DNA of 64,000 nucleotides from a virus (Duplodnaviria > Heunggongvirae > Uroviricota > Caudoviricetes). The stretch lies in IMG/VR virus record IMGVR_UViG_3300021256_000058, positions 117,823-181,822 of that record; one strand, given 5' to 3'. The translations under genes and the position numbers were made by a program. Below are positions 5,310 to 61,842 of this stretch, in pieces (positions within the stretch are counted from its first letter, which is position 1; each line of letters opens with the position of its first letter). The notes under the pieces are model-generated. The model had not been told where the DNA came from. It saw only the letters and a program-made list of their open reading frames with translations, and searched no databases.

Positions 5310-5315
5310 TTATAT

Positions 5316-5352
5316 TGGGAGAACCAAATTAATTGGTTTTCCCAATTTTTTA
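5316..5352 (+). terminator. hairpin plus T-run
   Basis: gggagaaccaa-attaa-ttggttttccc, with one G-U pair, followed by aatttttta. Confidence 0.45.
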
Positions 5353-5388
5353 TTATATTATAGAAATCTAAGAGAGGTGGTAAAATAA

Positions 5389-7806: not shown

Positions 7807-7897
7807 GGCCAAATATATTTAATTATAATTTTACTTTTTTCAAATTCTTTGAAAGAGGTAAGATACCAATTTCACCTACATTATTTTAAACATATAT

Positions 7898-7930
7898 ATA
7901 GGGGAGAGGTATAACCTCTCCCCTATTTTT
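7898..7930 (+). terminator. rho-independent terminator
   Basis: A perfect hairpin ggggagaggt-ataa-cctctcccc is followed by a T7 run. A second hairpin, ccctcc...ggaggg, lies just downstream. Confidence 0.7.
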
Positions 7931-7993
7931 TTATTATATGCCCTCCACCTGCTAAGGCCCGGAGGGACTTTAGCAGAAAGGAGATGCTGAAGA

Positions 7994-22288: not shown

Positions 22289-22628
22289 TGTTTATGCAAA
22301 TCTCGTCAGAGAGTTTGATATTTTTAAAATTTGACAGATCAATTGTCAAGGGAGCTTCCGAACTAATAGAAGTAGTAACGTTATTATGATCGTCTGTCTT
22401 ATGAGTGTAAGTAATACTGTCATTAGATGCATTTGTAATATTTATTGGATTACCAGTAGTAGTATTGGCAGTATAGTACCATGGATAACTTGGAGAAGTC
22501 CAGGTCCAACTCTACTTGCGGCCATCCGCATATCCTGCTTCATAAACTTCATCAAGAAGTTTTTCAAGCTCTTCTTTTGTGAATACGATCTGTCCCTTAC
22601 TATTAGGATAGAACACTTTTACTTTCAT
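22275..22628 (-). CDS. hypothetical protein with 1 in-frame TAG, missed by the ORF track
   Basis: Its ATG overlaps the permease stop as TAATG. The 354-nt frame contains a single TAG and no TAA or TGA, which is notable in AT-rich DNA. Confidence 0.35.
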
Positions 22629-23878
22629 TATTCACTTTTCTCCTTTAACACTAAATTGAGGATAACTCCAACAATCAGACCGAGCGCAGTTGCTGAGAAT
22701 GAAAGTGTAGTTCCTCCAACTGCAAGACCACTAATACCAAGAGAAAGAACAGTAGAGACAATGATTAAATTCTTCTGGATATTAAGGTCAATCTTCTGTA
22801 ACATCTTAATACCTGAGCAAGCGATAAAACCATAAAGGATTATTGCAGCTCCTGCAAATACGCAGCTTGGTATGCTTGCAATAAAAGCTTGTACTGGGGC
22901 AAGGAATCCAAGTAGGACTAGGAATAGCGCTGCTCCCAATGTGACTTTAGTCGACGCAACTCGCGAAAATCCAACACAAGCAACGCCTTCTCCATAGGAA
23001 CAAATTCCGAGAGAACCTACGGAAGTACCGACTACGTTTGCAAGTCCTTCACCGATAAAGAGGCGTCCAAGTCCAGGCTTTTTGTAAAGATCTACACCAA
23101 CAATTCCTCCAAGTGCGGCATGGTCGCTTAAACATTCCATCATTGCGGAAATAGTATATGCAATGTACATTACTATGATGGGCACAAGAGTTGTAAACTC
23201 TACAGCAGCCCAATGAGTAAATGCGAAGTCTGGTACGGAAATGAATTTTAAATTGGCAAATACACTAAAGTCAATCAGCGGGTAAATTCCGCACACAGTC
23301 AAGATGACCGCATATACATAACCAATCAGAGTGCCCAAAAGGAATGGTAGAATTCGAGCAATACCTTTAGCATAATGTGAGATAATAGCGATAGCAAACA
23401 TTGTGATTAGTGCTGCGCTAACGCCCCACATATTTGTAATACCATTTACTTGAACATAAGTAAGAATAAAAGGCATCAGATTTACGCCAATCACAACAGT
23501 GACCGCACCAATAAGAGCATGAGGGAAGATTTTATATATCTTCTCTACTGGTACTTTTGTAAAAATAATACCAAATAAGCAATATACTAAACAAGTTACC
23601 AAACCACCGATTGCAACTGCGGTATAGCCTCCTGCGGCCAAGGCTGCCATTACTGGCGCTACAAAAGCACCAGAACTGGACACAAACATCGGAGACTTAA
23701 ATCCTGTGACAATTAAGTACAGAATTGTAGAAAGCCCTGCCCCAACCAGTGCTCCAGAGACCGCAACACCGCAGATATTTGCAATCAAAACTGTTGCAAC
23801 GAAAACTGAAAGTACAAGTTGAATTGAGAAGACTATCAGTTTATTAAACGGCAATTTGTCTTCAATATTATAAATCAT
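22628..23878 (-). CDS. NCS2-family nucleobase:cation symporter (uracil/xanthine permease-like)
   Basis: It has about 12 predicted TM helices. The C-terminal half, ...GFSRVASTKVT..IPSCVFAGAAIILYGFIACSGIKML, fits the UraA/PyrP signature. It is free of TAG. Confidence 0.75.
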   Translation of the reverse strand: MIYNIEDKLPFNKLIVFSIQLVLSVFVATVLIANICGVAVSGALVGAGLSTILYLIVTGFKSPMFVSSSGAFVAPVMAALAAGGYTAVAIGGLVTCLVYCLFGIIFTKVPVEKIYKIFPHALIGAVTVVIGVNLMPFILTYVQVNGITNMWGVSAALITMFAIAIISHYAKGIARILPFLLGTLIGYVYAVILTVCGIYPLIDFSVFANLKFISVPDFAFTHWAAVEFTTLVPIIVMYIAYTISAMMECLSDHAALGGIVGVDLYKKPGLGRLFIGEGLANVVGTSVGSLGICSYGEGVACVGFSRVASTKVTLGAALFLVLLGFLAPVQAFIASIPSCVFAGAAIILYGFIACSGIKMLQKIDLNIQKNLIIVSTVLSLGISGLAVGGTTLSFSATALGLIVGVILNLVLKEKSE

Positions 23879-24138
23879 TCTTCTACTACTTCTCTTTCTT
23901 TATCTTCAATAATTTCATTTAGGAATGTCCTTAGACTTTTTAGCATATCGACAGGCATATCCCTAAATATTTCGACGCCTTTGGGAAGCATTAGAGGGAC
24001 ATGGCCTGGGAATGCTTTGCAATAAACGTCATACATATGCTTAGCTGTTTCAATATCATACAGCTCGCTATCATAGTAAAGGAGATCAACTATCATATTT
24101 TCCATATACTCTCTCCAGCTCCGCAATAGCTTCATCAA
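23875..24138 (-). CDS. hypothetical protein
   Basis: An intact 87-aa ORF ending in TGA. Confidence 0.45.
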   Translation of the reverse strand: MMKLLRSWREYMENMIVDLLYYDSELYDIETAKHMYDVYCKAFPGHVPLMLPKGVEIFRDMPVDMLKSLRTFLNEIIEDKEREVVEE

Positions 24139-24604
24139 TATTGCTGACTAATACGCCAGCCTGCTTGATAAGACCAGTTACATAGAGATTCTGGTATGAA
24201 TACTGTTGTTCGCCCAATGAAGCAGCTCCGCCAGCATCTTTGGCTTCACTATGAGTAATATAGCACTGACGAGTATCAGTACAAATACCAATAATGTACT
24301 TATTATCTCCGCGTGAGATCTTTTCATGGAACTTACCGATCTCAGCGCATGTTCCAGAAGGCAATACATCACCATCAATGCAAGCAATAAGAACATCTGT
24401 ATTATCAAGCCGAACATTGTCTCCATTGGCAATTTCCTGGCTTCCCGCAAATTTCTTCTTACCCTCGACACCATTTATATCTGTATTCTCAACTGGGGAG
24501 TATACATAGGCATCAGGAAACTTTTCTCTAATCTTAGTGGCCCATTCAATATTGCGGAGATAGTCTCCATAAAAGAAAATCGGACCAGCGAGGTATATTT
24601 TCAT
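24086..24604 (-). CDS. nucleoside 2-deoxyribosyltransferase / Rcl-like (PF05014-type)
   Basis: The N-terminal MKIYLAGPIFF signature is followed by an Asp/Glu-rich core. It ends in TGA. Confidence 0.7.
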   Translation of the reverse strand: MKIYLAGPIFFYGDYLRNIEWATKIREKFPDAYVYSPVENTDINGVEGKKKFAGSQEIANGDNVRLDNTDVLIACIDGDVLPSGTCAEIGKFHEKISRGDNKYIIGICTDTRQCYITHSEAKDAGGAASLGEQQYSYQNLYVTGLIKQAGVLVSNIDEAIAELERVYGKYDS

Positions 24605-25541: not shown

Positions 25542-26020
25542 TTTTGCTCCTTTAAATTAATAACTCTCTGATTAGTAGATCCACGCATCCAAAGGCTAAT
25601 ATCTCTCTGCTCTTGGATAAATGGCCCATCAATCAGTACATCTATCGTAGCTAAAATATCTTTTAAGCGAGGGCTACTATGATTTTGAAGCTCTTCATAC
25701 GTAAACCCTGTCCAAAGATAAATTTTTATATCTGGGTATTCTTCTCTTACCGCAGTTGCAACCATATAAGTAAGAAAAAGATTTTCTTCTGCTAATGGTT
25801 CTCCTCCCATAATGCAGAAATCTCTTTGAATACCATTGGCCTTTATACCATTAATAATTTCATTAATTGTATCTACTGTAAAAGTTTTTCCGCCGTCAAA
25901 GTCCCAAGTCTCTGGATTATGACATCCTGGGCAATGTCTGTGACATCCTTGGACGAAGAATGTCAAACAGACCCCAGGAGCTGCAGCAACATCGTTATAG
26001 ATTATGCCAGCGTATTTCAT
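25538..26020 (-). CDS. nrdG: anaerobic ribonucleotide reductase activating protein (radical SAM)
   Basis: Contains the Cys cluster FVQGCHRHCPGCHNPETW. Its ATG overlaps the nrdD TGA. Confidence 0.85.
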   Translation of the reverse strand: MKYAGIIYNDVAAAPGVCLTFFVQGCHRHCPGCHNPETWDFDGGKTFTVDTINEIINGIKANGIQRDFCIMGGEPLAEENLFLTYMVATAVREEYPDIKIYLWTGFTYEELQNHSSPRLKDILATIDVLIDGPFIQEQRDISLWMRGSTNQRVINLKEQK

Positions 26021-28293
26021 CGCATAATCCCCGTATGCTTGGTTCTTTCTTCAACTTCAGCTTGCTTTCCTTTATTAAAAGCAGTCTTATAGTTGCCTGT
26101 CAAATAACCAGTTACACGGCGGAGTTGCTGGATATTTTCACTACCACAAACTGGGCAATGGTCATTAAATTCACCAGTATAGCCGCAGTCAAGGCAGGTA
26201 TCATTTGGGACATTGATTGCAAAATATGGAATATCATGTTCCATAGCATAATTGACAATTTCTTCAACAGCATCAATATTGTTCAATACTGCACCATCAA
26301 GCTCCACATAAGTAATGCAACCACCATTAGAATAGCCAGTAAGCTGACTTTCAATGTCGATCTTCTCAAATGGAGACACTTCTTTCCATACAGGAACGTG
26401 CATTGAATTAGTGAAATACTCATGGTCAGAAACATTTTCAATTACACCATATTGCTCTTTAAACTTCTTCATAGCAGTATAGCAAAGATTCTCAGCAGGC
26501 GTATAATATACACCAAAGTTCAAACTATATTTCTTTTTGAATTCTGCGCAACGAGTATTAAACAATTGTTCAATATGTTTTGCAAGATTCATACCTTTAA
26601 CAGTAGTATGATCACATCCAATCAATAGCTGAAGAGCTTCGGCAAGGCCAAGTTGACCAATTACTAAAGTGCCGTGCTTAAGCGCGGAACGGATTCCCTC
26701 TTCAGGAATATAACCAGCCATTGTGCCATTTTCATACATGAATTTTGCACTTTCAGGGCTCTGGCTGCAAATCCATTCAAAACGCTCAATTAACATATCT
26801 CTTGCTTCTGCGATCTTCTGGTCAAGATATTTAAGGAAATGATCTTCAAGATTTGGATCACTAATACCATATTCATCAACTATTTGTTTTGCAAGAGTTG
26901 GAAGAATAATAGTAACAGGGCAAATATTACCACGACCATCTTTCTTAAAGCCCATACCATTAATATCGAAACCATTATAAGTTCTACAGCCCATCGTGCT
27001 TACATACTGTGTAGGATCATTTTTATCATATCCCGCATTTACTGACCAATCAACATTAGCGTAATTAGGATACAATCTCTTTGCGGTGCTTTCCAAAGCC
27101 ATGCGATAAAGATCATAGTTAGGAGTACCAGGTTTATCATTAACGCCTTTCATATACTGGAAAATACCACAAGGGAAAATAGAAGTTTTATGCAATTTAC
27201 CAAGTCCTTCAATAGAAACACTAAGGAGAGCCTTAGTTACCATTCTACCTTCTGGAAGCGTGCAAGTACCATAATTAATTGAAGTAAAAGGCAACTGATT
27301 GCCGCTACGGGATTGCAGAGTATTCAGATTATGATACATACCTTCTGCTGCCTGATGGACTTCTTTTTCAGTCATATCATAGGCATAACGATAAATATCT
27401 GCATCTTCTTTAAAATAATCATCTTCAATACCAAATTGCAAGCGTTTTGCATACCCAACTACTTCATTGATATTATGATCGTCAAGATTACCAATGTACT
27501 TGCATCCATCTGCATAATGTTTGTAGAATGATTTGCGGACATAGGGCACCATTGTCCAATCCAGATGAGTTGCACTTACTCCACCAAACTGCTGTAAACT
27601 TTGAAGCTGAAATAAAACTGCAACAAGCTGAAATGCAGTATTCACAGAACCGGCTGGCCGCACATCTGTCTGGCGAGTATTAAACCCATTAGCGAGCAAA
27701 TCATCTAATGGAAGACTTAGGCAATTATGGTCACCAACTGCATAATGATCTAAGTCATGAATGTAAATCATATTACCTTCATGGTTTGCTCTTGCCATGT
27801 CTGATACCAAATAATCAAGAGCATATTGTTTAGTCATATAACTTGTAGCTTCACCCATACGACCGCCAAATGAGTGTTCATCAATGTTAGCGTTCTGGTT
27901 CTGTACATTTCTTGCTTCGAGCTTCTCTCGAATTGGACGAATGAAATCGTCTTGTACATTACGAGCTACTTCTTTTTTATATCTATATCTAATATATGCG
28001 CGAGCCACATCACGGCGCTCTGAGCGCATCAAATAATCCTCAACCCAGTCTTGGATTAACTCTACTGGGATGGGAGCAACACTACCAATGACTTTTTTGC
28101 CAATTTCAAGCGCAATATCTGTTGCTGTATCGTTTTCATAAAGTTTTCCATCAACTTCAATGAAAGCCTTATTAATAGCATTAATAATTTTCTGCGCATC
28201 GAAGTTGACAGTTGAGCCATCACGCTTCAATACATGCATATAAATAAAACCTCCAAACCAAAATATTGTGTTAATTTTCGCGGACATCCACAA
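26017..28293 (-). CDS. nrdD: class III anaerobic ribonucleoside-triphosphate reductase
   Basis: 758 aa with an N-terminal ATP-cone (VLKRDGSTVNFDAQKI), a C-terminal Zn Cys cluster (CLDCGY...CPVCGS) and a glycyl-radical tail RVTGYL. Contains no TAG. Confidence 0.9.
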   Translation of the reverse strand: MWMSAKINTIFWFGGFIYMHVLKRDGSTVNFDAQKIINAINKAFIEVDGKLYENDTATDIALEIGKKVIGSVAPIPVELIQDWVEDYLMRSERRDVARAYIRYRYKKEVARNVQDDFIRPIREKLEARNVQNQNANIDEHSFGGRMGEATSYMTKQYALDYLVSDMARANHEGNMIYIHDLDHYAVGDHNCLSLPLDDLLANGFNTRQTDVRPAGSVNTAFQLVAVLFQLQSLQQFGGVSATHLDWTMVPYVRKSFYKHYADGCKYIGNLDDHNINEVVGYAKRLQFGIEDDYFKEDADIYRYAYDMTEKEVHQAAEGMYHNLNTLQSRSGNQLPFTSINYGTCTLPEGRMVTKALLSVSIEGLGKLHKTSIFPCGIFQYMKGVNDKPGTPNYDLYRMALESTAKRLYPNYANVDWSVNAGYDKNDPTQYVSTMGCRTYNGFDINGMGFKKDGRGNICPVTIILPTLAKQIVDEYGISDPNLEDHFLKYLDQKIAEARDMLIERFEWICSQSPESAKFMYENGTMAGYIPEEGIRSALKHGTLVIGQLGLAEALQLLIGCDHTTVKGMNLAKHIEQLFNTRCAEFKKKYSLNFGVYYTPAENLCYTAMKKFKEQYGVIENVSDHEYFTNSMHVPVWKEVSPFEKIDIESQLTGYSNGGCITYVELDGAVLNNIDAVEEIVNYAMEHDIPYFAINVPNDTCLDCGYTGEFNDHCPVCGSENIQQLRRVTGYLTGNYKTAFNKGKQAEVEERTKHTGIMR

Positions 28294-42310: not shown

Positions 42311-42339
42311 ATTATACCATATTTTATTAATAAAATCAA
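42311..42339 (-). promoter_or_regulatory. sigma70-type promoter TTGATT-N17-TGgTATAAT
   Basis: + strand attataccat 42311-20 and aatcaa 42334-39, with a 17-nt spacer. Confidence 0.65.
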
Positions 42340-42371: not shown

Positions 42372-42650
42372 TTATTCGAGGCTTGCGTTATAACCTGCGA
42401 TATTTGGGTTAATATATTTTAAGAACGCTTCAAGTTCATCAATATATATCTTCCTATCACCAAGAGCTTCAGGGGTAATAAGAGCATGATACCCGGCAAA
42501 TTCCATACCAGAAGTATCCATATTATAATCTTTTGCTTTCTGTTCCATTGCTCTTGGATTAGCACTTACTACTACACCATTATTGCGCTGAGCAAGATAT
42601 AGTAGCTGCTTGGACTTGCCGGTTCCACGGCTTCCAAGGATGTAATCCAT
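42372..42650 (-). CDS. small P-loop protein
   Basis: GSRGTGKSKQ Walker A motif in a 92-aa protein. Confidence 0.45.
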   Translation of the reverse strand: MDYILGSRGTGKSKQLLYLAQRNNGVVVSANPRAMEQKAKDYNMDTSGMEFAGYHALITPEALGDRKIYIDELEAFLKYINPNIAGYNASLE

Positions 42651-42663
42651 AATTTCTCCCTTA

Positions 42664-43653
42664 CTTTATACTATATCCATATTCTTTAGCCTTGAAATAA
42701 TCCTACCAATAGTCTTCACGAGCATTGAGATCTTGTGGTTTACATTCTTCAATTATTTCAAATGTAAAATTCTCTACACCAAGAGCTAACATAGCAGGAT
42801 AAAGTTTATTGCGGGTAGGCTATTCTGCGCCTATACCGCGCTTAATGTGCTATTTCCATCTTTCTGCAATATTTATTGCTTGACCTACATAGCACATTTG
42901 ATTTTCTAAATTAGTTATTTTATAAATACCAGTTTTTGATTTTGCCCCTACGACTCGGCCAATCAAATCTGTGTAAGGTTTTTCATAATAAACTTTATAA
43001 ATAACTTTGTTGAGAGGCTCCTTATTTCTTAAATAAGGTTCAACAGATCTCAATTTTGCGATTTCTTCAATATCTATATCAGATAATTGTAACCGATAAA
43101 AATCTTTCTTTTCACGTTCAAGTTCTGCGCGCTTGGCTGCCTCTGTAGCAGCAGTAACTTTAGATTGAAATTCTGCAAGTTGAGCCTAAGCAGCTTCTAC
43201 TTGCTGGCCCATCTACCGCGCAGTAGCAAGGAGATCCGCAATAACCTGTTCATACTCAGCCCTACATTCTTCTTCTCCCTCCTGGTATTTAGCACCAGTT
43301 TTTTCAAGAGCATGTTCAAGCTTTTCTTCTGCAAGTTTCATCTAATTATCATAAAAAGTTTTTGCGGCATCTTCTGCTTGAGCCTATGAATTTTTATAAT
43401 ATCTATCGGTTTCATCTACTTTAGTGCGTAATATTTGAAGTTTTTTCTCTTCTTCTGCCTATTGGAGCTATTTAGTATTAATACTTACTTCAATATTACG
43501 CTATTGACTTTCTAATTCTTGTAGGGCAGCGCGCTCATGAGCAATATTCTCTTCATTTATCTTTCGGATTTGTTGCTGAGGTATAATCCGACAGATTATA
43601 AAGACTATTAAACCTACGATTATGCCCCCTACAAGCGCATATATCCACTACAT
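42664..43653 (-). CDS. N-terminal TM helix + long coiled coil + C-terminal GIY-YIG nuclease domain, about 330 codons with 11 in-frame TAG
   Basis: The start is ATG-TAG-TGG, giving M Q W IYALVGGIIVGLIVFIIC, a TM helix. A Q/E/A-rich coiled coil follows. The C-terminus reads GIYKITNLENQMCYVGQAINIAERWK-Q-HIKRG...FTFEIIEECKPQDLNAREDYW-Q-DYFKAKEYGYSIK, which is colinear with I-TevI-type GIY-YIG domains. It is in frame with the track ORF 42850..43053 and ends in TAA. Confidence 0.65.
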
Positions 43654-43672
43654 TTTTAGATAAAAAACAAAA

Positions 43673-43696
43673 GGGGTAAAAATATTATTTTACCCC
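43673..43696 (-). terminator. hairpin terminator
   Basis: ggggtaaaa / ttttacccc inverted repeat lying after the stop of the 43720 gene. Confidence 0.55.
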
Positions 43697-43719
43697 TTCA
43701 ATGCGACTTTATTTATAGA

Positions 43720-43986
43720 TTAGGTCTCGTCAGCATCTGGGTCAAGAGCCATACCAGCATCAGTGAGCTGGAGGAACTTAACCTGCTTATGAGTTCCATC
43801 TTCAAGCTCGATCTCGGCAGGAACGCGCACGCCATAGCCCTTGCGCTGAATAGCACTTGTGAAAATACCATCTACCTGGCGCTTCTCGAGGCCAACTGCA
43901 TTTGCAACATCCTCGGAAGTGAGATCAGCACCGTGATTCTGCTTCAAATAATTAAGTACGTTCTTAGAATTCTCTTTCATAGCCAT
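43720..43986 (-). CDS. small HTH DNA-binding protein
   Basis: 88 aa containing the helix-turn-helix-like segment LTSEDVANAVGLEKRQVDGI. Confidence 0.5.
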   Translation of the reverse strand: MAMKENSKNVLNYLKQNHGADLTSEDVANAVGLEKRQVDGIFTSAIQRKGYGVRVPAEIELEDGTHKQVKFLQLTDAGMALDPDADET

Positions 43987-44051: not shown

Positions 44052-44080
44052 ATTATAGCAAAAAATTTTCTGATTGTCAA
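44052..44080 (-). promoter_or_regulatory. consensus sigma70 promoter TTGACA-N17-TATAAT
   Basis: - strand ttgacaatcagaaaattttttgctataat. Both hexamers are perfect, the spacer is 17 nt, and it sits about 60 nt upstream of the 43986 start. Confidence 0.75.
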
Positions 44081-46379: not shown

Positions 46380-47219
46380 TTAAAGATTTTGTGTTTTCTG
46401 TTTAAGCTCAGCAATATCTTTCTCAATCTGAGTTAAACGGTCAGTTAAATTATATTGTGGGATGCTAGGATTTGAAGAAGTATTTTTAACATATAGATTT
46501 CCATCTATTAAATAATCACCTTTAAGGTTATCTCCTCCATTATTAGATACATACCCAAGATTTGTTTTTACGCCACTAATACTTGTGGCACCAGTACCTC
46601 CACGAGCAAGAGGAATAGCTGCACTTAGATTGTCTCCTATACCTAAAGCATTACTTAACGCAGGCAAAGAAGTAACTCCAGTACCTCCTCTAGTGACAGG
46701 AATGGCGTCAAAAGTTGCGTTAGCCCCAGATACACTAGCATTTCCTAGCCCAAGCAGATTAGTTAAAGCATTTAATGTTGTTACACCAGTGCCACCAAAA
46801 GCAACAGGAACTGTGCCGAATGACGGCTCTTGATTAGCAGAATTAACTTGTAATACTCCAGTGCCAGAAGTACCAATCATTTTAACTTGGCCAGTACCGT
46901 TACCCGCAAGTAAAGCATTATTGTCTAAACTTTGGCGACCAGTGCCGCCAGCCGCTACTCCGATCGCTTCACCAGAACCTCCAGCTAAAAGCAAACCTTT
47001 TAATTCAGGAATAGATGTAACTCCAGTTCCACCTTGTTCTGGAGCTAGTGGAGCTGTTGTAGAATCTCCTAACCCTAAACTGGCACGTAATGCATTTAAA
47101 TTAGTTACACCAGTACCACCATTATCAGTTTTTAATACTTGAGTACTAGTATCAAATGCAGACTATACTACATTTAATAAAGTATTAATGGTAGCAGTTG
47201 CAAAATTTAATTTACCCAT
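46380..47219 (-). CDS. phage tail-fibre repeat (Phage_fiber_2-like GGTGxTxLxALxxLGLG) protein with TAG at codon 19
   Basis: An ATG at 47217-19 follows the RBS aaggag. The GGTGVTNLNALRASLGLG-type repeat occurs 7 times, on both sides of the TAG at 47163-65. There is a C-terminal coiled coil. The track ORF starts artificially at an internal TTG. Confidence 0.55.
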
Positions 47220-52240: not shown

Positions 52241-52558
52241 TTATCCGACTGGCGTATCGTCATAAGTTTCAACGCCACGAATCATTTTTTCATAATTAAT
52301 ACCATCTTTGGTATTCTCTTTCTCTGACTTTTTATAGAAAAAAGCCTAACTTACGCCATATGCTCCCCATGGCATTGACACCATGGCAGTTAGCCAGGGC
52401 AGTTCACCGAAATACTACTTGACAATACAATAAAATGCGAGTATAATAAAAGATAGAGTTGTAATCCAAATTAAAATTGATTCTTGTACAAGAAGTTTTT
52501 TGGAGAACTCAAGAGGTTTCTTTTTCTTTGTCTCTTGGGTTTTTTCTTCTTCAGACAT
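52241..52558 (-). CDS. holin-like 2-TM membrane protein with 2 in-frame TAG
   Basis: The ATG is embedded in the endolysin 3' end as gATGtcTGA. The product has the TM helices ILIWITTLSFIILAFYCIV and LPWLTAMVSMPWGAYGV. It is 105 codons, ends in TAA and was missed by the ORF track. Confidence 0.45.
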
Positions 52559-53861
52559 CGAGAGTGTAGGTTAAGTCAATCCAACCTTCACGGTCGGCCA
52601 ACTTACCATATACTCCTTCTTGTTTAGTGATTACAACTTCTTCACCCTGATGCACTAAACCAAGAACTTCAGAATGCTTATTTGACTCGGCACGAATGTT
52701 CAAAGATTGCGCGGTAATACGCACTTTCTGCCCAGCTGCTACTGATGGTTTTGCCGTGCCTACTCCCCAGCGTGGTACACCATAGCCAGCAATTGAACTA
52801 TAACCAATAGGATAAGTGCGTCTTGCTACTTGGTCAGAAGAGTTGCCTTCAATAGTAACTACAGTAGTTGGGGTGACAGATTCTACGATACCAGTATGGT
52901 TAATACCACCACTGTAATAGAAGAAAATTTGAGAACCAACAGCAGGAGTATTACTCCATTGGCCTGCTGCTTTATAATAATCTGCGGAATAAGAACAAGC
53001 TGCTCCGCAATCACCAGTTTGGCAGATTAGGCGTTCTGCTTTTGCGCGATCGCGTCCGCATAGCACCCAATAGCACCAGTCCGCAAAAACATCGCACCAG
53101 GCATAGCCGTTTTTGTTCCCGTTATAATAACCCGCATTAGCTAAATCACGGGCATATTTTGTCCAGTTATTACCGCCCGCGTTTGCAGTTTTATCATCAA
53201 GCTAAGAATTGCTATTTTTCTCCCGATAGCCAATTTCCGCAGCTGCAATCTTAACTAAATTTTGCGGGGTAATATCTCCACTAACCACAGGAGTTGTGTC
53301 ATCTTTTGGTGTAACATCTGTGGTCGAATCGTCATGCTTATTTTCCTGTGCCTCTTGGATTAATTGTAAATATTTTGGATGAACGTTACCAGTTACCAAT
53401 CCAGTTTTCATAGTAGAAATTGTAACGCTACTACTGTTATTAATATTACGAACATATAAGTTCATTTTAAATAACCAACTTGGAATCTTTTGACCGGTAG
53501 TATATGTTGCACCATCTTTAAGTTTTACAATATCTCCGACAGAGAAATTCTTTACTTGTACTTGGTCATCATCTACAATGACCACGGTTGTCTTAGGATA
53601 GCTTGGATTGGTTACAGTATCTCCAAGAGCTTCATAGAGAGCTGTCCAGCTTTGTGGGCCAAATTCTCCATCTGGATCTAAGGAGTGCTCGGTCTAGAAC
53701 TTTATAACTGCGGCTAGGGTATTTGCCCCAAAATCGCCATCAGCGCCATCTGGGCCAAGGTCGTAACCTAATTCAATCAATTTAGTTTGCATATTTTGAG
53801 TATTAGAGCGATCTCTATTATTCAAACGCAATATAACTGATGGAACCGTTCTTACTGCCAT
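52551..53861 (-). CDS. endolysin: PG_binding_1 + CHAP amidase/peptidase + SH3b, with 2 in-frame TAG
   Basis: An ATG follows the RBS aaaggag. PG_binding_1 reads LGYDLGPDGADGDFGANTLAAVIKF-TAG-TEHSLDPDGEFGPQSW, with the TAG at the conserved FQ position. CHAP reads NGYAWCDVF...NHTGIVESV...EGNSS. The C-terminal SH3b reads KVRITAQSLNIRAE...WIDLTY. The track pieces 52551..53066 and 53202..53585 share a frame. Confidence 0.7.
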
Positions 53862-53884
53862 ATTTATACTCCTTTCTTAATATA

Positions 53885-53915
53885 AAAAAGTAAGGTAGAA
53901 ATAAATTCTACCTTA
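53885..53915 (-). terminator. hairpin overlapping the phoH-like stop
   Basis: aaggtagaa-ataaatt-ctacctt. Confidence 0.5.
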
Positions 53916-55193
53916 CATCTGTTCTGCTATTGCTGCTATTCTGCTTCGATGAATCTTAGTAAGTGTTATTTCACCATAAATATCATGGCCTCTAAATACC
54001 TTTGATGCTCGACGCATACCGTTATTTATTCCAGCAAATGCGATATCATCTACCTAGGCTTTTTCGTCACCATCTATGATACAAATACTATCTTCACCAA
54101 TACGTTGTAATGCTAATTTCATCATCGCAATATCGAGGTTTTGAGCTTCTGAAATATAAATACCAGCTTTCATACCGGTAGTATCATAACCTCTAATATC
54201 AGATAATGGAAGTAGAAGTAATTTTTCTTCATCAATTAATTTTTCTACTTCAATTCTGCTGCCGATTTTACTAATAAGTAAATTACCTATCTAAGAATCA
54301 AGAAGTTTCTCTTCTCTTGTACCGGGCAGATAGCCCAATTTGGCAGCGCCTTTGACCGCAACCGTATTGCAAAATACAATTATCTTTTCAATTTTATGTT
54401 TCTCTAATAAGCTAAATAAATAGCCAAGAGAAAGAATGGTTTTACCAGTGCCCGCAGGACCTTTAATCATAGTAATTTTATTATGAACAAGACTATCTGC
54501 AACAAATTGCTGGTGAATATCACCTGGCATTGGTTTAACTGTTCCGAAATGATCGGATGTAAAAGATGTAAAATTAACTTGTCGCCATCCATCGACTGTG
54601 CGAACTAGTCTGTCTACTGGCTCGCCTTCTGGATTACGTAAGATAAGGTATTGATTTATTAAGCAGTCTATGTCGAATTTATGTGAATAGAAATCTGCCA
54701 TAGTTTGCTCATTGGGGCAAGTAAAATCCATTATACCCGTATATTCATCATCTTCTGGTTCTACTGATTCAAGCATTCCGTCGCCAAAGAAAATGTTAGC
54801 TATTTCAAATAAGCAAGCATCATTGGTTACAAAAATTACTTCATCAGTTCGGACATTATTATTATAATCTATCGCAGTTGCTAATATTTTTGTATCATTA
54901 TTTACAGAAAAATTCTTTTCTAAAATAGGAGCAAGCATATCTTCTGTAAAGATATGAACGTGATATTTACCTCTATTTTTTACTAATAAATTGGTTAAAA
55001 TTCTGGCTTTATATTTGGTATCATCATCTTTATTAGCATTAGTTTTGATAGATTCTAATTCTTGTAAAGTGATAGAAGAAATTACGAACTCTTCGTCAGT
55101 CTTAAAAAGAGTAGGAATTTTTAAGAGTAAAGAGCAAGTATCATAAAATCTTATATCAGTCATCATCGTCTTCTTCCTCCTCATAATATTCAT
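53913..55193 (-). CDS. PIN + PhoH-like ATPase (PhoH2/YlaK-type) with 2 in-frame TAG
   Basis: Walker A GPAGTGKT. The sequence continues across the TAG at 54291 into ..VDEAQN-type DIAMMKLALQRIGEDSICIIDGDEKA-TAG-VDDIAF.., and it ends in TAA. Confidence 0.65.
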
Positions 55194-58671: not shown

Positions 58672-59565
58672 TTATTCAGTTGGTACATTTTCAGTCGGTG
58701 TATTGGTAAGATCTAGCATAATACCAGTAGTATCACCAAGCATAGTAGTAGGCAGTTCACCATTCCACTGTTTAATCCAGTAGTAATCAATCAACTCTGG
58801 ACTCAAAGCTTCTGCGATGCGCTGGTTCATTTCTGCCTCACGCTGGCCTGCATACAGACTTGCTTCAGCTTGAATCTTTACTACCTCAAGATCCGCATTA
58901 GCCGCGATTACCGCCTGTTCAGCGTCTGCATTTGCAGTAATAATTGCACGTTTAGCTCTTGCTTCCTCTTCCATAGTGGCCTGCTCTTGTTCAGTCTGAG
59001 CTTTTAGTTTATTCTGGGCAGCAACCTGCTTTGCTTCTACGGCATTAGTAAAAGCATCAGTAAAGTCCAGATCTTCAATGGAAGTGCCAACAATTTCGAT
59101 ATTGTACTTCTGGAGTAATACAACAAGGATTTCCTCAATTTCAGTTGCAAGCTTATCACGATTATTAATTAGACCTTCAGCAGTATAATGAGCTGTGGCA
59201 GTCTTTACAGCTTCACTGATATTAGGAGCAATGACTGTATCGAAGTAGCCTTTGCCAATAGTGCGGTAAATAGTCATTGCATCACTCTTGCTGATCTGAT
59301 AGTTGATTGTATATGTAACTGCTGTTTCCTGAATGTCTTTAGAAAATGCGCTCATTTGAATTGTATGCTTCTGGATTCGGTTGTCCATTTTTACAACGCT
59401 TGTAAAAGGTGATTTTAGATGAAAACCACTATCAAGCGTATAGTCTGCGACTTTACCAAATGTGACTGGCACTCCAGTAAATCCTGCTGGAACTGAAGTA
59501 AAACATGACAGCCCAATCAGTGTTAGCAATGCAACAATGACAGCAATAACAATCAGTCTTTTCAT
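58672..59565 (-). CDS. SPFH/band-7 (prohibitin/HflC-like) membrane protein
   Basis: An N-terminal TM helix, then an SPFH core (..YTINYQISKSDAMTIYRTIG..), then an Ala/Glu/Gln-rich coiled coil. Confidence 0.65.
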   Translation of the reverse strand: MKRLIVIAVIVALLTLIGLSCFTSVPAGFTGVPVTFGKVADYTLDSGFHLKSPFTSVVKMDNRIQKHTIQMSAFSKDIQETAVTYTINYQISKSDAMTIYRTIGKGYFDTVIAPNISEAVKTATAHYTAEGLINNRDKLATEIEEILVVLLQKYNIEIVGTSIEDLDFTDAFTNAVEAKQVAAQNKLKAQTEQEQATMEEEARAKRAIITANADAEQAVIAANADLEVVKIQAEASLYAGQREAEMNQRIAEALSPELIDYYWIKQWNGELPTTMLGDTTGIMLDLTNTPTENVPTE

Positions 59566-59608
59566 TATTTAGTTTTCTCCTTTTATTCTATCTATAATGG
59601 CTTCCTTC

Positions 59609-60835
59609 TTAGCCGTGGAATTTAAGAAGGAAGCTATTGCTTACTGCTTTGAAAGATTTCTGACCATCAAGGCTACGCAAGACGAATCCCTCACGAGGTT
59701 TCCCATCGAGTTTAGAATTGCCTTCGGCCATAGCCAGAAGTCCATCAACATCAAGTCCATCGAACTTGAAATTACTATCTACTACTGGTACACAAGGTAC
59801 TTCATAGCCATTCAGCTCAATGATCATATCGAGAGTTCCCCAACGACCCTTATCTGAAGTGATTAGGTTAAAAGCCCGGAAATCATGATCTTCGATTGAA
59901 TAATCACGACGCTGGACTCCCGCGCCATAAGTTTCACCCTGGATAGTAACCCACTGAGCTTCTGGATGGTTCATCAGAAATTTATTGAGTACGTTGAACA
60001 TATCATATTTCTGAGCCATTTCCCAGTAAATATTGGTGTCATAATAGCAAGGTTTATCCACGCTATCAAAGCAGACGTTACGAGAACAAACGTAGAAATC
60101 ATTTTTTCTGTGTTTTCCACGCTTCATAGTGAAAGTAGTAGAACTACCATCAATTTTCTCGGTAACAATCCAATCCCCAGTATCATTAAGAATCCAAGGC
60201 ATATTCTGTACACGCTCTTCATCGGTTTTAGCTACCCATTCAGGCCAGCCATTTTTCTTATCTTTCTTTTTACCGAAAAGAACAAATAGAATCTTTTTAC
60301 CCCAAGTGCGTTTCATAAGCCAACGCACGAAAGGCTTACGGAAGATCGCAGGATGGCGCTGAGCCATCTTTTTATATTTATCTGCGGAAGGAGCTTTTCT
60401 CTGGTTATCTTCAGCATCAGCGTAAGTCACACCAAGTTCTTTAGTAAGAAAACGAGACTCACCATCAGCGTACCAAATACGAGAATTATCTTTAGGATCA
60501 TAAATAAGAACATGTCCATCTGCGTCAAGGCCATTTTTCCAACCAAAATCTTCTGCGTGCATAAGGAGACCCTGAGAAAGAACTTTACACATTTTAAGGG
60601 TTTTGACTTTATAATTGCGTTTCTCAAGAAATGCAAAGCATTCCTTATCTGCGGGAACACGAGAGTCAATTTCAAAATAGATTGCAGGATCACCAACTTT
60701 AAACTGGCCTTTCTGCACAATTACTCGCCAGCCACCAACGGTAGCATGTTCTACTCGGTCATAGCCAGGGATAGGATCAATTCCATCTATGGTTACTACA
60801 TATGCAAGCTCACGCTCGCTGTTTGCATTTAGCAT
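59609..60835 (-). CDS. ATP-dependent RNA/DNA ligase-family nucleotidyltransferase
   Basis: The KxDG adenylation motif, in WIVTEKIDGSSTTFTM, sits around residue 225 of 408. Confidence 0.55.
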   Translation of the reverse strand: MLNANSERELAYVVTIDGIDPIPGYDRVEHATVGGWRVIVQKGQFKVGDPAIYFEIDSRVPADKECFAFLEKRNYKVKTLKMCKVLSQGLLMHAEDFGWKNGLDADGHVLIYDPKDNSRIWYADGESRFLTKELGVTYADAEDNQRKAPSADKYKKMAQRHPAIFRKPFVRWLMKRTWGKKILFVLFGKKKDKKNGWPEWVAKTDEERVQNMPWILNDTGDWIVTEKIDGSSTTFTMKRGKHRKNDFYVCSRNVCFDSVDKPCYYDTNIYWEMAQKYDMFNVLNKFLMNHPEAQWVTIQGETYGAGVQRRDYSIEDHDFRAFNLITSDKGRWGTLDMIIELNGYEVPCVPVVDSNFKFDGLDVDGLLAMAEGNSKLDGKPREGFVLRSLDGQKSFKAVSNSFLLKFHG

Positions 60836-61090: not shown

Positions 61091-61283
61091 TTATTTCTCC
61101 TTCAAGCAAGGCGCATACTCTATCACAAGCATCATCTTTCTCTGCTTCAGTTATTTTACGCCATTTCCAAGCCCAACTAATATAATCGGCTATGGAAGAA
61201 ATGGAACGCTCATAGTATCCATGTTTCTCATGCTGTTTAATGGCGCGATCAATTTTTTCATAGACAGTCATATTAATCCTCAC
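61074..61283 (-). CDS. hypothetical protein
   Basis: An intact 69-aa ORF. Confidence 0.4.
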   Translation of the reverse strand: MRINMTVYEKIDRAIKQHEKHGYYERSISSIADYISWAWKWRKITEAEKDDACDRVCALLEGEINGNIY

Positions 61284-61842
61284 ATTTTCTCAGCACATAA
61301 TTACCAAACTTAATTGATACAGTCGGATTGGCGGCCTTCTTCACTTTTTCAAACGTCTCAAGAACGCCTTTCGGGTTGCTCGACAAAGATTTATCTGCCA
61401 GCATAAGAGCTTTGGCAACATCGAACTCAACTTTGACCCCGTTCATAAAGACTTTTGTCACTGGAGCCGATTCCGCACCAGGGGCGCTGACCGCATGTAT
61501 CGCCTGATCTTCTTTAGCTCTTTTGGTGTTTTCTTCCTTAGTAACCCATTCCAAATTTTTGAGAGAGTTATCTCTGGTATTATGATTCAGATGATCGACG
61601 GTGAGATTCGCGTAGTTAGGAACTGGATTGAAAGTCTGCATAACCAGTCTATGTACGAGTTTCCCTTTATAGACAAGGTAATTATCTTTTACACCAACTG
61701 TCTGCAGAACGCCATTCTTATCTTTGATGCGCCCAAGAGAGGAAACATAAATATCCAAAGCCATACAATATTTCCATTTCTCAATCCCAAAATGGATCTG
61801 CGGACGCAAGAATTTAATCTTTTCTTTGACTGTCATAATCAT
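61273..61842 (-). CDS. HNH homing-endonuclease-like protein
   Basis: Contains LTVDHLNHNTRDNSLKNLEWVTKEEN, an HNH motif, and has a NUMOD-like N-terminus. Confidence 0.6.
   Translation of the reverse strand: MIMTVKEKIKFLRPQIHFGIEKWKYCMALDIYVSSLGRIKDKNGVLQTVGVKDNYLVYKGKLVHRLVMQTFNPVPNYANLTVDHLNHNTRDNSLKNLEWVTKEENTKRAKEDQAIHAVSAPGAESAPVTKVFMNGVKVEFDVAKALMLADKSLSSNPKGVLETFEKVKKAANPTVSIKFGNYVLRKCED

What the first reader, a model, noticed from the sequence alone, without database searches (positions are those of the whole stretch)
42664..43653. The densest TAG gene is a membrane-anchored coiled-coil GIY-YIG nuclease with an unusual domain arrangement
About 330 codons carry 11 TAG. One is codon 2 (ATG TAG TGG), which would stop translation almost at once without suppression. 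With TAG read as Gln, the protein has an N-terminal TM helix, IYALVGGIIVGLIVFIIC. Then comes a heptad-rich coiled coil of around 170 aa, rich in Q, E and A. The C-terminus is a complete GIY-YIG catalytic core: GIYKIT..YVGQA..ERWKQH..FTFEIIEEC..NAREDYWQDYF..GYSIK. I do not recognise a membrane-tethered, coiled-coil-spaced GIY-YIG nuclease as a standard phage protein family. The strict TAG gating, 3.3% of codons, suggests that its untimely expression is toxic. It could be involved in host DNA degradation, envelope-associated DNA processing or lysis. The six-frame track shows only a 67-aa fragment of it.
Basis: partly seen in the sequence, partly recalled or inferred. Interest (0 to 1): 0.8.

Follow-up and report, generated by a model that had tools for sequence, protein, structure and literature searches.

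The report
Amber-gated membrane-tethered GIY-YIG phage nuclease
A gut phage that reads the TAG stop codon as glutamine carries a conserved but unstudied gene for a DNA-cutting enzyme held on a long helical stalk at the inner face of the cell membrane, and the gene is built so that it can only be made late in infection.

Summary
Window 42661..43653 (minus strand) is a 330-codon gene ending in TAA. It has 11 in-frame TAG codons, including codon 2. TAG aligns with Gln in homologs, and two TAGs sit at invariant Gln positions.

The protein has four parts:
- an N-terminal membrane helix, predicted N-out/C-in;
- one predicted helix of about 180 residues;
- a conserved 50-residue domain with no known relative;

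It is not a mobile homing endonuclease. It is a core gene at a fixed position (ligase, wHTH, this gene, YorF, DnaB) in a large clade of TAG-recoded phages with SPbeta-like replication genes, probably infecting Firmicutes. A profile search found 868 50%-identity cluster representatives at E<1e-30. No cultured phage has it, and no bacterial chromosome locus was found.

In 18 of 18 loci with neighbours, its TAG share of Gln codons exceeds theirs (29% against 5% pooled). A conserved terminator hairpin lies just upstream and there is no Shine-Dalgarno sequence.

Corrections: a RuvC-like ORF is slightly TAG-denser, and the density reflects late-class codon usage on a Gln-rich stalk.

Best reading: a late-made, membrane-confined, non-site-specific DNA endonuclease. 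Its biological role is unresolved.

The parts
42661..43653 (-). Whole gene: 330 codons plus TAA, with 11 in-frame TAG read as Gln
   Evidence: Searches give the codon count. TAG aligns with Gln in homologs. The identical 330-aa protein P0001 is in public assemblies.
43582..43647 (-). Codons 3-24: single N-terminal transmembrane helix, predicted N-out/C-in
   Evidence: Kyte-Doolittle 19-residue mean is 2.79. It is conserved across 53 family sequences (median 2.56). There are 0-1 K/R residues before it and 2-5 in the 15 residues after it.
43111..43581 (-). Codons 25-181: long Glu/Ala/Gln-rich alpha-helical stalk, probably a coiled coil; 7 of the 11 TAG lie here
   Evidence: AlphaFold2 predicts one helix over residues 3-181 with pLDDT mostly above 90. 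Composition is E 17.6%, A 15.7%, Q 11.8%. Heptad-like periodicity is significant only locally, residues 68-172. Stalk length varies across the family, whose members are 315-434 aa.
42946..43101 (-). Codons 185-236: conserved small middle domain (DFYRL...NKVIWKVYYEKPYTDLIGRVVG) with no match to any known family
   Evidence: Many columns are invariant in the 35-sequence alignment. The model has one short strand and two helices. Pfam gives no hit here even at E<=1. The domain is shared with Phass-1, whose tblastn match covers residues 186-330.
42679..42933 (-). Codons 241-325: I-TevI-type GIY-YIG nuclease domain; TAG at codons 268, 278 and 317
43670..43699 (-). Intrinsic-terminator-like hairpin plus T-run, 16 nt upstream of the ATG; no Shine-Dalgarno sequence between it and the start
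   Evidence: One search finds 12 pairs followed by a T-run. A hairpin at the same place, kept through differing stem sequences, is present in 15 of 17 related loci. The lack of a Shine-Dalgarno sequence contrasts with neighbouring genes.
43720..43986 (-). Conserved upstream neighbour: 88-aa acidic-tailed protein, winged-helix-like in relatives. It is driven by a 12/12 consensus promoter (44080..44052) and ended by the hairpin.
   Evidence: TrmB/MarR hits are only faint, and only on the duplicated versions in L020 and L021. The window copy has no significant Pfam or PHROG hit.
42372..42650 (-). Conserved downstream neighbour: 92-aa protein with Walker-A-like GSRGTGKS and Walker-B-like IYIDE. 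It starts 10 nt after the nuclease stop with its own Shine-Dalgarno sequence and has no TAG.
   Evidence: It is present directly downstream in 6 of the 8 related loci examined. The only family hit is phrog_1828, of unknown function, E = 3.8e-4.

Best explanation
The gene encodes a late-translated DNA endonuclease tethered to the membrane.

**Shown or strongly predicted**
- A single N-terminal transmembrane helix anchors the protein. The positive-inside rule places everything after it in the cytoplasm.
- A helix of about 155 residues (roughly 20-25 nm if straight, probably a dimeric coiled coil) carries a small conserved domain and an I-TevI-type GIY-YIG catalytic domain at its far end.
- None of the sequence-specific DNA-binding modules that target homing endonucleases were detected.
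- The gene is a vertically inherited core gene of a large clade of TAG-to-Gln recoded phages with SPbeta-like replication genes.
- It sits at a fixed position inside the otherwise standard-code replication module.
- It uses the late-gene codon dialect.

**Inferred mechanism**
- Early in infection the gene is silent. Transcription from the strong promoter upstream stops at the hairpin, there is no Shine-Dalgarno sequence, and the amber codons terminate any translation.
- Once terminator read-through and amber suppression set in, the enzyme is made and inserts into the membrane.
- It pairs through the stalk, which would bring two single-active-site domains together.
- It then nicks or cuts DNA with little sequence preference, but only within a shell about 25 nm deep under the membrane.

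**Most likely role (weakest step)**
It destroys host or other unpackaged or foreign DNA late in infection. Confinement in time and space would spare the phage's own early replication.
For: **Identity and fold**
- Sequence family matches.
- The catalytic Tyr/Tyr/Arg/His/Glu residues are invariant in 35 sequences.

**TAG reads as Gln**
- TAG aligns with Gln in homologs, including the invariant Q268 and Q317.
- No gene in the window ends in TAG.

**Membrane anchor and topology**
-.

**Core gene, not mobile**
- The order ligase, 60 aa, 88 aa, this gene, (92 aa), YorF, AAA_24, YorH, DnaB, RecJ holds in relatives down to a profile E of about 1e-73.
- The family has 868 cluster representatives at E<1e-30.
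- Only 11 loci were found in 185,579 species genomes. All are MAG contigs, five of them 158-176 kb long.

**Late class**
- TAG share of Gln codons in the window: 0.38 for this gene, 0.41 for the structural genes, 0.05 for the other minus-strand genes.
- The share is higher than in neighbours in 18 of 18 loci, pooled 28.6% against 4.8%.
- The published pattern for recoded phages is that structural and lysis genes are recoded and replication genes mostly are not (bioRxiv 10.1101/2021.08.26.457843).

**Extra gating**
- Terminator hairpin conserved in 15 of 17 loci, and no Shine-Dalgarno sequence.

**No DNA-binding module**
- Pfam found only PF01541 above its threshold.
Against: - No activity, localisation, oligomeric state or timing was measured. 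Everything beyond the fold is inference.
- I-TevI Asn90 is replaced by Ser in every family member (GYSIK).
- The heptad signal is only local, so a dimeric coiled coil is not proven.
- The suppressor tRNA or other decoding factor is not in the window.
- Host DNA degradation is usually an early function in known phages (my own knowledge). That fits poorly with late translation.
- The conserved position among replication genes could mean a role in phage DNA metabolism instead.
- Phass-1, L018 and L020 do have a Shine-Dalgarno sequence. Phass-1 also has a promoter-like site, so weak initiation is not universal.
Confidence: 0.45

Rival explanations
1. It has a role in phage DNA replication or recombination. 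The nuclease would be tethered where Gram-positive phage replisomes assemble. There it would nick or cut phage DNA late, for example to start recombination-dependent or rolling-circle concatemer synthesis, or to trim branched DNA before packaging. It would work alongside the equally amber-rich RuvC-like resolvase.
For: - Its position is fixed between the NAD-dependent ligase/gyrase genes and YorF/AAA_24/DnaB/RecJ in all loci examined.
- The other TAG-dense small gene in the window is a RuvC-like resolvase, with 6 of 8 Gln codons as TAG.
- From my own knowledge, phi29 p16.7 is a membrane-anchored coiled-coil DNA-binding protein that organises membrane-associated replication. This is an architectural precedent and was not tested here.
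Against: - No structure-specific or site-specific DNA-binding domain was detected.
- Gene position alone is weak evidence in phages. In this genome a lysis cassette and a permease also sit inside the same strand block.
- A resolvase is already present.
Confidence: 0.2
2. It is an exclusion or competition nuclease. It would wait at the cytoplasmic face of the membrane and cut DNA as it enters the cell, whether from superinfecting phages, conjugation or transformation. Making it only after the phage's own genome has entered would avoid self-restriction.
For: - The C-in membrane tether and long reach are conserved.
- Delayed synthesis is conserved.
- Single-gene defence proteins with GIY-YIG domains exist: Uzume, PD-T4-3 and PD-Lambda-1 (bioRxiv 10.1101/2024.10.26.620412).
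- There is a weak UzuA match over the nuclease domain.
Against: - From my own knowledge, known superinfection-exclusion genes are expressed early or from prophages. A late protein would protect only a short time window.
- The UzuA similarity is limited to the catalytic domain and is weaker than the match to homing endonucleases.
- No self/non-self discrimination feature, such as a DNA-modification gene, was identified in the part of the window that was annotated.
Confidence: 0.15
3. It is an ordinary selfish GIY-YIG homing endonuclease of the I-TevI/Seg type that happens to have an unusual N-terminus.
For: - The best family matches are TIGR01453 'group I intron endonuclease' and PHROG or PADLOC 'homing endonuclease' models.
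- The closest solved structure is I-TevI.
Against: - The catalytic domain is C-terminal rather than N-terminal.
- No NUMOD, IENR1, zinc-finger or HTH DNA-binding modules were found.
- The gene is at the same locus in all 19 loci examined, with 42-100% protein identity in those where it was measured. This is vertical inheritance, not sporadic insertion.
- The membrane anchor is conserved.
Confidence: 0.05
4. It is a lysis-associated membrane protein. The transmembrane helix and stalk would act with the holin and endolysin, and the nuclease would thin the viscous DNA released at lysis.
For: - It is late class and membrane anchored.
- Recoding is reported to be enriched in lysis genes.
Against: - The lysis cassette lies about 9 kb away and has its own terminators. 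It comprises the CHAP endolysin 52551..53861 and a holin-like 105-aa ORF 52241..52558.
- The predicted topology puts the nuclease inside the cell.
- The gene is never adjacent to lysis genes in the related loci.
Confidence: 0.07

Closest known systems
I-TevI catalytic domain (PDB 1MK0/1LN0; TIGR01453 group I intron endonuclease subfamily of GIY-YIG)
   Same: - Same GIY...YVG...R-x3-H...E catalytic residues.
   Different: - Here the domain is at the C-terminus of a membrane-anchored stalk.
- There is no linker, zinc finger or HTH DNA-binding region.
- Asn90 is Ser.
- The gene is a syntenic core gene, not a mobile element.
Phage T4 endonuclease II (DenA), a GIY-YIG host-DNA-degrading nuclease (PDB 2WSH)
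   Same: - This is the functional model for 'degrades non-phage DNA'.
   Different: - From my own knowledge, EndoII is soluble, is made early, and relies on phage DNA modification for self-protection.
- This protein is membrane-tethered and of the late class.
- Sequence identity is only 14%.
Phass-1 (OQ749652.1) ORFs WIC39637.1 and WIC39636.1, annotated 'hypothetical protein'
   Same: - They are true family members. Read with TAG as Gln, the two fragments join into one 326-aa protein with the same layout: transmembrane helix, stalk, middle domain, GIY-YIG.
- That joined gene has 8 TAG.
   Different: - Only 38% identity, over residues 186-330.
- It has its own promoter-like site and a Shine-Dalgarno sequence.
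- It lies next to two tRNA-Sup-CTA genes and NrdD, not in the ligase-YorF block.
Uzume defence protein UzuA (PADLOC PDLC03973) and phrog_26160
   Same: Both have a C-terminal GIY-YIG domain preceded by about 180 residues. The match covers profile positions 182-275 of 278, E = 6.4e-7.
   Different: - Similarity is confined to the nuclease domain.
- UzuA is a bacterial or plasmid single-gene defence system (PMC11811056).
- This family was found only on phage-like contigs.
Membrane-tethered cytoplasmic nucleic-acid proteins with an N-terminal transmembrane helix plus coiled coil: RNase Y, ZapG/YhcB, phi29 p16.7 (architectural analogues, recalled from my own knowledge)
   Same: - A single N-terminal anchor followed by a helical stalk that holds a nucleic-acid-acting domain in the cytoplasm.
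- JGI labelled one homolog 'YhcB (DUF1043)'.
- There is a weak ZapG hit to residues 1-52, E = 0.048.
   Different: - No significant sequence relationship.
- The effector domains differ: KH/HD in RNase Y and a DNA-binding dimer in p16.7, against GIY-YIG here.

Membership tests
GIY-YIG nuclease superfamily (PF01541), I-TevI-type subfamily (TIGR01453) | Sequence match above the curated thresholds | tested here: met
   PF01541 scores 44.2 bits against a cut-off of 22.6. TIGR01453 scores 71 bits against 56.05.
GIY-YIG nuclease superfamily (PF01541), I-TevI-type subfamily (TIGR01453) | Three-stranded sheet flanked by helices, superimposable on solved GIY-YIG domains | tested here: met
   [not shown]
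GIY-YIG nuclease superfamily (PF01541), I-TevI-type subfamily (TIGR01453) | Catalytic residues equivalent to I-TevI Y6, Y17, R27, H31, E75 | tested here: met
   Y244, Y255, R265, H269 and E313 are invariant in 35 family sequences and align to those I-TevI positions.
GIY-YIG nuclease superfamily (PF01541), I-TevI-type subfamily (TIGR01453) | Conserved Asn equivalent to I-TevI N90 | tested here: not met
   The aligned residue is Ser328, in the invariant GYSIK motif.
GIY-YIG nuclease superfamily (PF01541), I-TevI-type subfamily (TIGR01453) | Divalent-metal-dependent DNA cleavage | not testable with these tools
   This needs a biochemical assay.
Free-standing or intron-encoded GIY-YIG homing endonucleases (I-TevI, Seg proteins) | N-terminal catalytic domain joined to a C-terminal sequence-specific DNA-binding region (NUMOD/IENR1/zinc finger/HTH) | tested here: not met
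   The catalytic domain occupies residues 241-325 of 330. No DNA-binding module was found in Pfam at E<=1. The region N-terminal of it is a transmembrane helix plus a long helix.
Free-standing or intron-encoded GIY-YIG homing endonucleases (I-TevI, Seg proteins) | Sporadic, mobile distribution among close relatives, with insertion in or beside a target gene | tested here: not met
   The locus and gene order are the same in relatives across the family. The gene is present in all 19 loci examined.
Genetic code 15 (TAG to Gln) late-gene class of recoded phages | In-frame TAG at positions that are Gln in homologs, and TAG not used as a stop | tested here: met
   TAG aligns with Gln, including the invariant Q268 and Q317. 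All 51 window genes end in TAA or TGA.
Genetic code 15 (TAG to Gln) late-gene class of recoded phages | TAG usage like structural and lysis genes and unlike replication genes | tested here: met
   TAG share of Gln codons is 0.38, against 0.41 for the structural genes and 0.05 for the other minus-strand genes. It exceeds the neighbours in 18 of 18 loci.
Genetic code 15 (TAG to Gln) late-gene class of recoded phages | Phage-encoded suppressor tRNA(CTA) or another decoding factor | tested here: inconclusive
   No tRNA was found in the 64-kb window, and the rest of the 172.6-kb genome was not available. Phass-1 has two tRNA-Sup-CTA genes beside its homolog.
Uzume (UzuA) anti-phage defence | Full-length similarity to UzuA and location in bacterial or plasmid genomes | tested here: not met
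   The match covers only the nuclease domain, E = 6.4e-7. The scan of 185,579 species genomes gave only 11 loci, all on MAG contigs, five of them 158-176 kb long.

The most novel reading that the evidence does not exclude
This family may be a previously unrecognised core function of a large clade of amber-recoded Firmicutes phages. It would be a nuclease confined both in space (a 20-25 nm stalk under the membrane) and in time (terminator, no Shine-Dalgarno sequence, amber codons). That confinement would let a non-specific DNase coexist with the phage's own unmodified genome. On this reading, the genetic-code switch would act as a safety interlock for a self-toxic enzyme. The enzyme would clear host or competitor DNA at the cell periphery, or cut DNA entering through the membrane.
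Probability: 0.2. Interest if true: 0.65.

Novelty: new variant of a known kind. Interest (0 to 1): 0.45.

Why it matters
**Annotation.** Standard-code gene calling shatters this gene. GenBank's Phass-1 record splits the homolog into two 'hypothetical proteins'. As a result, a family of hundreds of clusters that is conserved across a major group of gut phages has gone unannotated.

**Test case for recoding.** The prevailing idea is that stop-codon recoding times late gene expression. This gene is a clean case for testing it:
- It is a single amber-rich gene embedded in a standard-code replication block.
- The property is conserved in 18 of 18 loci with neighbours.
- Its product is a predictable, assayable enzyme.

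**If the confinement idea is right.** It would show how a phage can deploy a non-specific DNase without a DNA-modification-based self-protection system.

Tried and rejected
- **Megablast of the 2.4-kb region against INPHARED.** No match.
- **tblastn of this protein and of the Phass-1 homolog against INPHARED.** Only Phass-1 itself shares more than the nuclease domain, so no cultured phage offers an experimental handle.
- **Foldseek against afdb50.** The library was not available.
- **BFVD.** Two unnamed viral proteins share the long-helix-plus-nuclease layout (A0A345BPZ2 and A0A8S5RTR9). No names or context could be retrieved.
- **Literature.** Searches for 'Uzume/UzuA' were mostly noise. A search for GIY-YIG, transmembrane, coiled-coil and phage found nothing on this architecture. 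The phAss-1 paper and the recoding preprint do not mention the gene.
- **Whole-stalk heptad Fourier test.** Not significant; 18% of shuffles reach the observed value. Only windowed, family-averaged analysis gave local signal.
- **Hairpin as a device bringing a distal Shine-Dalgarno sequence close to the start.** Considered and rejected, because the G-run is itself paired in the stem.
- **Holliday-junction resolvase role.** Considered unlikely, because a RuvC-like resolvase is already encoded.
- **Sequencing artefact or pseudogene.** Rejected. The identical sequence occurs in three samples, and TAG occupies invariant Gln positions.
Full report
**1. What is in the sequence**

The feature is a minus-strand gene. 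It starts with ATG at 43653 and ends with TAA at 42661-42663, giving 330 sense codons.

It contains 11 in-frame TAG codons (positions 2, 51, 62, 65, 90, 104, 147, 156, 268, 278, 317) and no internal TAA or TGA. The second codon is TAG. No alternative canonical start lies between the ATG and the nearest upstream in-frame stop, 12 codons away.

**2. The window as a whole**

The window is 36% G+C. No gene among 51 ORFs called with only TAA and TGA as stops ends in TAG.

TAG use separates the genes into two classes:

| Gene set | TAG codons | TAG share of Gln codons |
|---|---|---|
| Four large plus-strand genes, 3069-18883 (one checked: Laminin_G_3 domains) | 59 | 0.41 |
| Minus-strand genes, 19.7-64 kb, excluding this gene | 20 in 12,583 codons | 0.05 |
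| This gene | 11 of 29 Gln codons | 0.38 |

- The Laminin_G_3 match for the plus-strand gene is.
- Against the minus-strand background, this gene's TAG count has a Poisson P of about 1e-11.
- Its TAG use is that of the late class. The high per-codon density (3.3%) arises because the protein is Gln-rich.
- The RuvC-like resolvase ORF 20355..20858 is slightly denser: 6 TAG in 167 codons, and 6 of its 8 Gln codons. So 'the densest TAG gene' is not strictly correct.
- ARAGORN finds no tRNA in the window.

**3. TAG reads as glutamine, and the gene is real**

- The exact Gln-substituted protein (P0001) exists in public assemblies on four contigs. The three shown come from three samples, one of them a 172,581-bp contig.
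- In an alignment of the gene from five related phages, TAG codons in one genome face Gln in the others. Examples are RWK[TAG]H against RWRQH, YVG[TAG]A against YVGQA, and DYW[TAG]D against DYWQD.
- Q268 and Q317, both TAG in the window, are invariant Gln columns in a 35-sequence family alignment.

**4. The protein**

*Membrane anchor.* Residues 6-24 give a Kyte-Doolittle 19-residue mean of 2.79, and nothing else in the protein exceeds 1.6. Across 53 family sequences the anchor is conserved (median 2.56). There are 0-1 Lys/Arg residues before it and 2-5 in the 15 residues after it. By the positive-inside rule the bulk of the protein is therefore cytoplasmic.

*Overall model.* AlphaFold2, run with the family alignment, gives mean pLDDT 86. 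It predicts:
- one continuous helix over residues 3-181;
- a small domain at 185-236, made of one strand and two helices;
- an alpha/beta domain at 241-325.

*Stalk.* It is rich in Glu (17.6%), Ala (15.7%) and Gln (11.8%). A 3.5-residue hydrophobic repeat is not significant over the whole stalk. It is locally significant within about residues 68-172 when family-averaged hydrophobicity is used. A coiled coil is therefore likely but not proven.

*Nuclease domain.*
- PF01541, E = 2.4e-11.
- TIGR01453, 71 bits against a cut-off of 56.
- The family profile matches the I-TevI catalytic domain 1MK0 at E = 2.5e-6.
- Foldseek gives TM 0.80-0.86 to 1MK0 and 1LN0.
- The equivalents of I-TevI Y6, Y17, R27, H31 and E75 (Y244, Y255, R265, H269, E313) are invariant. 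N90 is Ser in all members.

*Other regions.* The middle domain has no match in any library, even at E<=1. No DNA-binding module was found.

**5. Distribution**

- The word-indexed search returned more than 100 full-length homologs. They are 42-100% identical and 315-384 aa long, on contigs of up to about 200 kb.
- The exhaustive profile search found 868 50%-identity cluster representatives at E<1e-30. Most of the 150 listed align over all or nearly all of the profile.
- In one genome per 185,579 prokaryotic species there are only 11 loci. All are MAG contigs, five of them 158-176 kb long, so they are most likely binned phage contigs.
- INPHARED holds one member, the uncultured Phass-1. There the gene is annotated as two 'hypothetical protein' fragments. 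Read with TAG as Gln it becomes a 326-aa protein of the same architecture with 8 TAG.
- BFVD holds two unnamed viral proteins with the same layout.
- I found no paper that describes the family.

**6. Genomic context**

In every relative examined, down to a profile E of about 1e-73, the gene occupies the same slot:

GyrB, RNase H, GyrA, NAD-ligase, 60-aa ORF, 88-aa (or duplicated about 160-aa) winged-helix-like protein, this gene, a 92-aa ORF in most loci, sometimes thymidylate synthase/DHFR, a wHTH protein, YorF, AAA_24, YorH, DnaB, RecJ-like, helicase, Pol III alpha.

This is vertical inheritance of a core gene, not the sporadic pattern of a homing endonuclease.

The host is probably a Firmicute. 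The evidence is:
- a CHAP plus PG_binding_1 endolysin;
- SPbeta-family replication proteins;
- strong AAAGGAG ribosome-binding sites;
- MAG labels dominated by Clostridia, Bacilli and Mollicutes.

**7. The gene is amber-rich everywhere**

In all 19 related loci the gene carries 1-16 in-frame TAG. In 18 of the 18 loci that have neighbouring ORFs, its TAG share of Gln codons exceeds theirs. The pooled figures are 119/416 (28.6%) against 83/1733 (4.8%).

**8. Further gating signals**

- A 12/12 consensus sigma-70 promoter with an extended -10 element (44080..44052) precedes the 88-aa gene.
- A 12-pair hairpin plus T-run (43699..43670) follows that gene and ends 16 nt before the nuclease ATG.
- A hairpin at the same place is present in 15 of 17 loci. 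Its stem sequences differ in a compensatory way.
- No Shine-Dalgarno sequence lies before the ATG in the window or in most relatives. Neighbouring genes have strong ones.
- L018, L020 and Phass-1 are exceptions with a Shine-Dalgarno sequence.
- The next promoter-like site on this strand (42339..42311) lies after the 92-aa gene.

The nuclease and the 92-aa gene therefore form a unit with no recognisable host-type promoter.

**9. Interpretation**

*Shown or strongly predicted:* a membrane-anchored, cytoplasm-facing, long-stalked protein with an intact I-TevI-type GIY-YIG domain and no targeting module. It is a core gene of a recoded phage clade and uses late-class codons.

*Inferred:* it is silent early because of the terminator, the missing Shine-Dalgarno sequence and the amber codons. 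It is made once read-through and suppression are available, pairs through the stalk, and cuts DNA with little sequence preference in a shell under the membrane.

*Biological role.* This is the weakest step. I favour destruction of host or other unpackaged or foreign DNA late in infection. The rivals are:
- a role in late phage DNA replication or recombination, which fits the conserved position and the co-recoded RuvC;
- exclusion of incoming DNA;
- a lysis-associated role, which is disfavoured because the holin-like ORF and endolysin are about 9 kb away;
- a plain homing endonuclease, which is rejected on architecture and synteny.

**10. Verdict**

The claims that this is the 'densest' TAG gene and that its TAG gating is exceptionally strict need correction. 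Function remains open.

This is a new architectural variant of a known nuclease kind. It is widespread but unannotated. I rate it of moderate interest (0.45). It is also a good experimental test case for the idea that code switching times, or safeguards, late gene expression.

Noticed in passing
window 20355..20858 (-): A RuvC-like Holliday-junction resolvase of 167 aa (PF02075; phrog_159 E = 3e-21) has 6 of its 8 Gln codons written as TAG. This is the highest TAG density in the window. It is a second nuclease embedded among standard-code genes.
   Followed up: partly
window 42372..42650 (-): A 92-aa ORF starts 10 nt after the nuclease stop. It has Walker-A-like GSRGTGKS and Walker-B-like IYIDE motifs, yet seems too short for a full P-loop NTPase. 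It is conserved directly downstream in 6 of 8 related loci. The only family hit is phrog_1828, of unknown function. It could be a partner or regulator of the nuclease.
   Followed up: partly
window 43720..43986 (-), promoter 44080..44052, terminator 43699..43670: A highly conserved 88-aa protein with an acidic DPDADET tail sits between a perfect extended -10 sigma-70 promoter and a strong terminator. In more distant relatives it is duplicated to about 160 aa and has faint TrmB/MarR hits. It is probably an abundant early DNA-binding protein or regulator.
   Followed up: partly
window 22628..23878 (-): The phage encodes a 416-aa xanthine/uracil-family permease (PF00860, E = 2e-49). It lies beside a nucleoside 2-deoxyribosyltransferase-like protein (24086..24604), NrdD (26017..28287) and a dUTPase (20855..21289). 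A membrane nucleobase transporter is an unusual auxiliary gene for a phage.
   Followed up: no
window 52241..55193 (-): A late island sits inside the replication strand. It holds a PIN+PhoH protein (53913..55193, 2 TAG), a CHAP/PG_binding_1 endolysin (52551..53861, 2 TAG) and a 105-aa holin-like ORF with a transmembrane segment (52241..52558, 2 TAG). Each is followed by a terminator-like hairpin.
   Followed up: partly
window 46380..47219 (-): A 279-aa protein between gyrA and the ligase gene is made of repeated GGTGVT(S/N)L..L motifs and ends in a coiled-coil-like tail. It has one TAG and no Pfam hit. It looks like a fibre or collagen-like repeat protein in an odd place.
   Followed up: no
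window 58672..60835 (-) and 61273..61842 (-): An SPFH/Band 7 membrane-scaffold protein (PF01145), an RNA ligase with a PHA02142 OB domain, and a separate HNH endonuclease are encoded upstream in the same strand block.
   Followed up: no
L019 (Phass-1 OQ749652.1) 4467..6007: In Phass-1 the homologous nuclease gene lies within 400 bp of tRNA-Leu and two tRNA-Sup-CTA genes. The GenBank record splits it into 46-aa and 144-aa 'hypothetical proteins', which is an annotation error caused by the TAG codons.
   Followed up: yes
window 8960..15484 (+): A very large 2174-codon ORF with 17 in-frame TAG sits among Laminin_G_3-domain genes (3069..7806). It was not annotated here.
   Followed up: no
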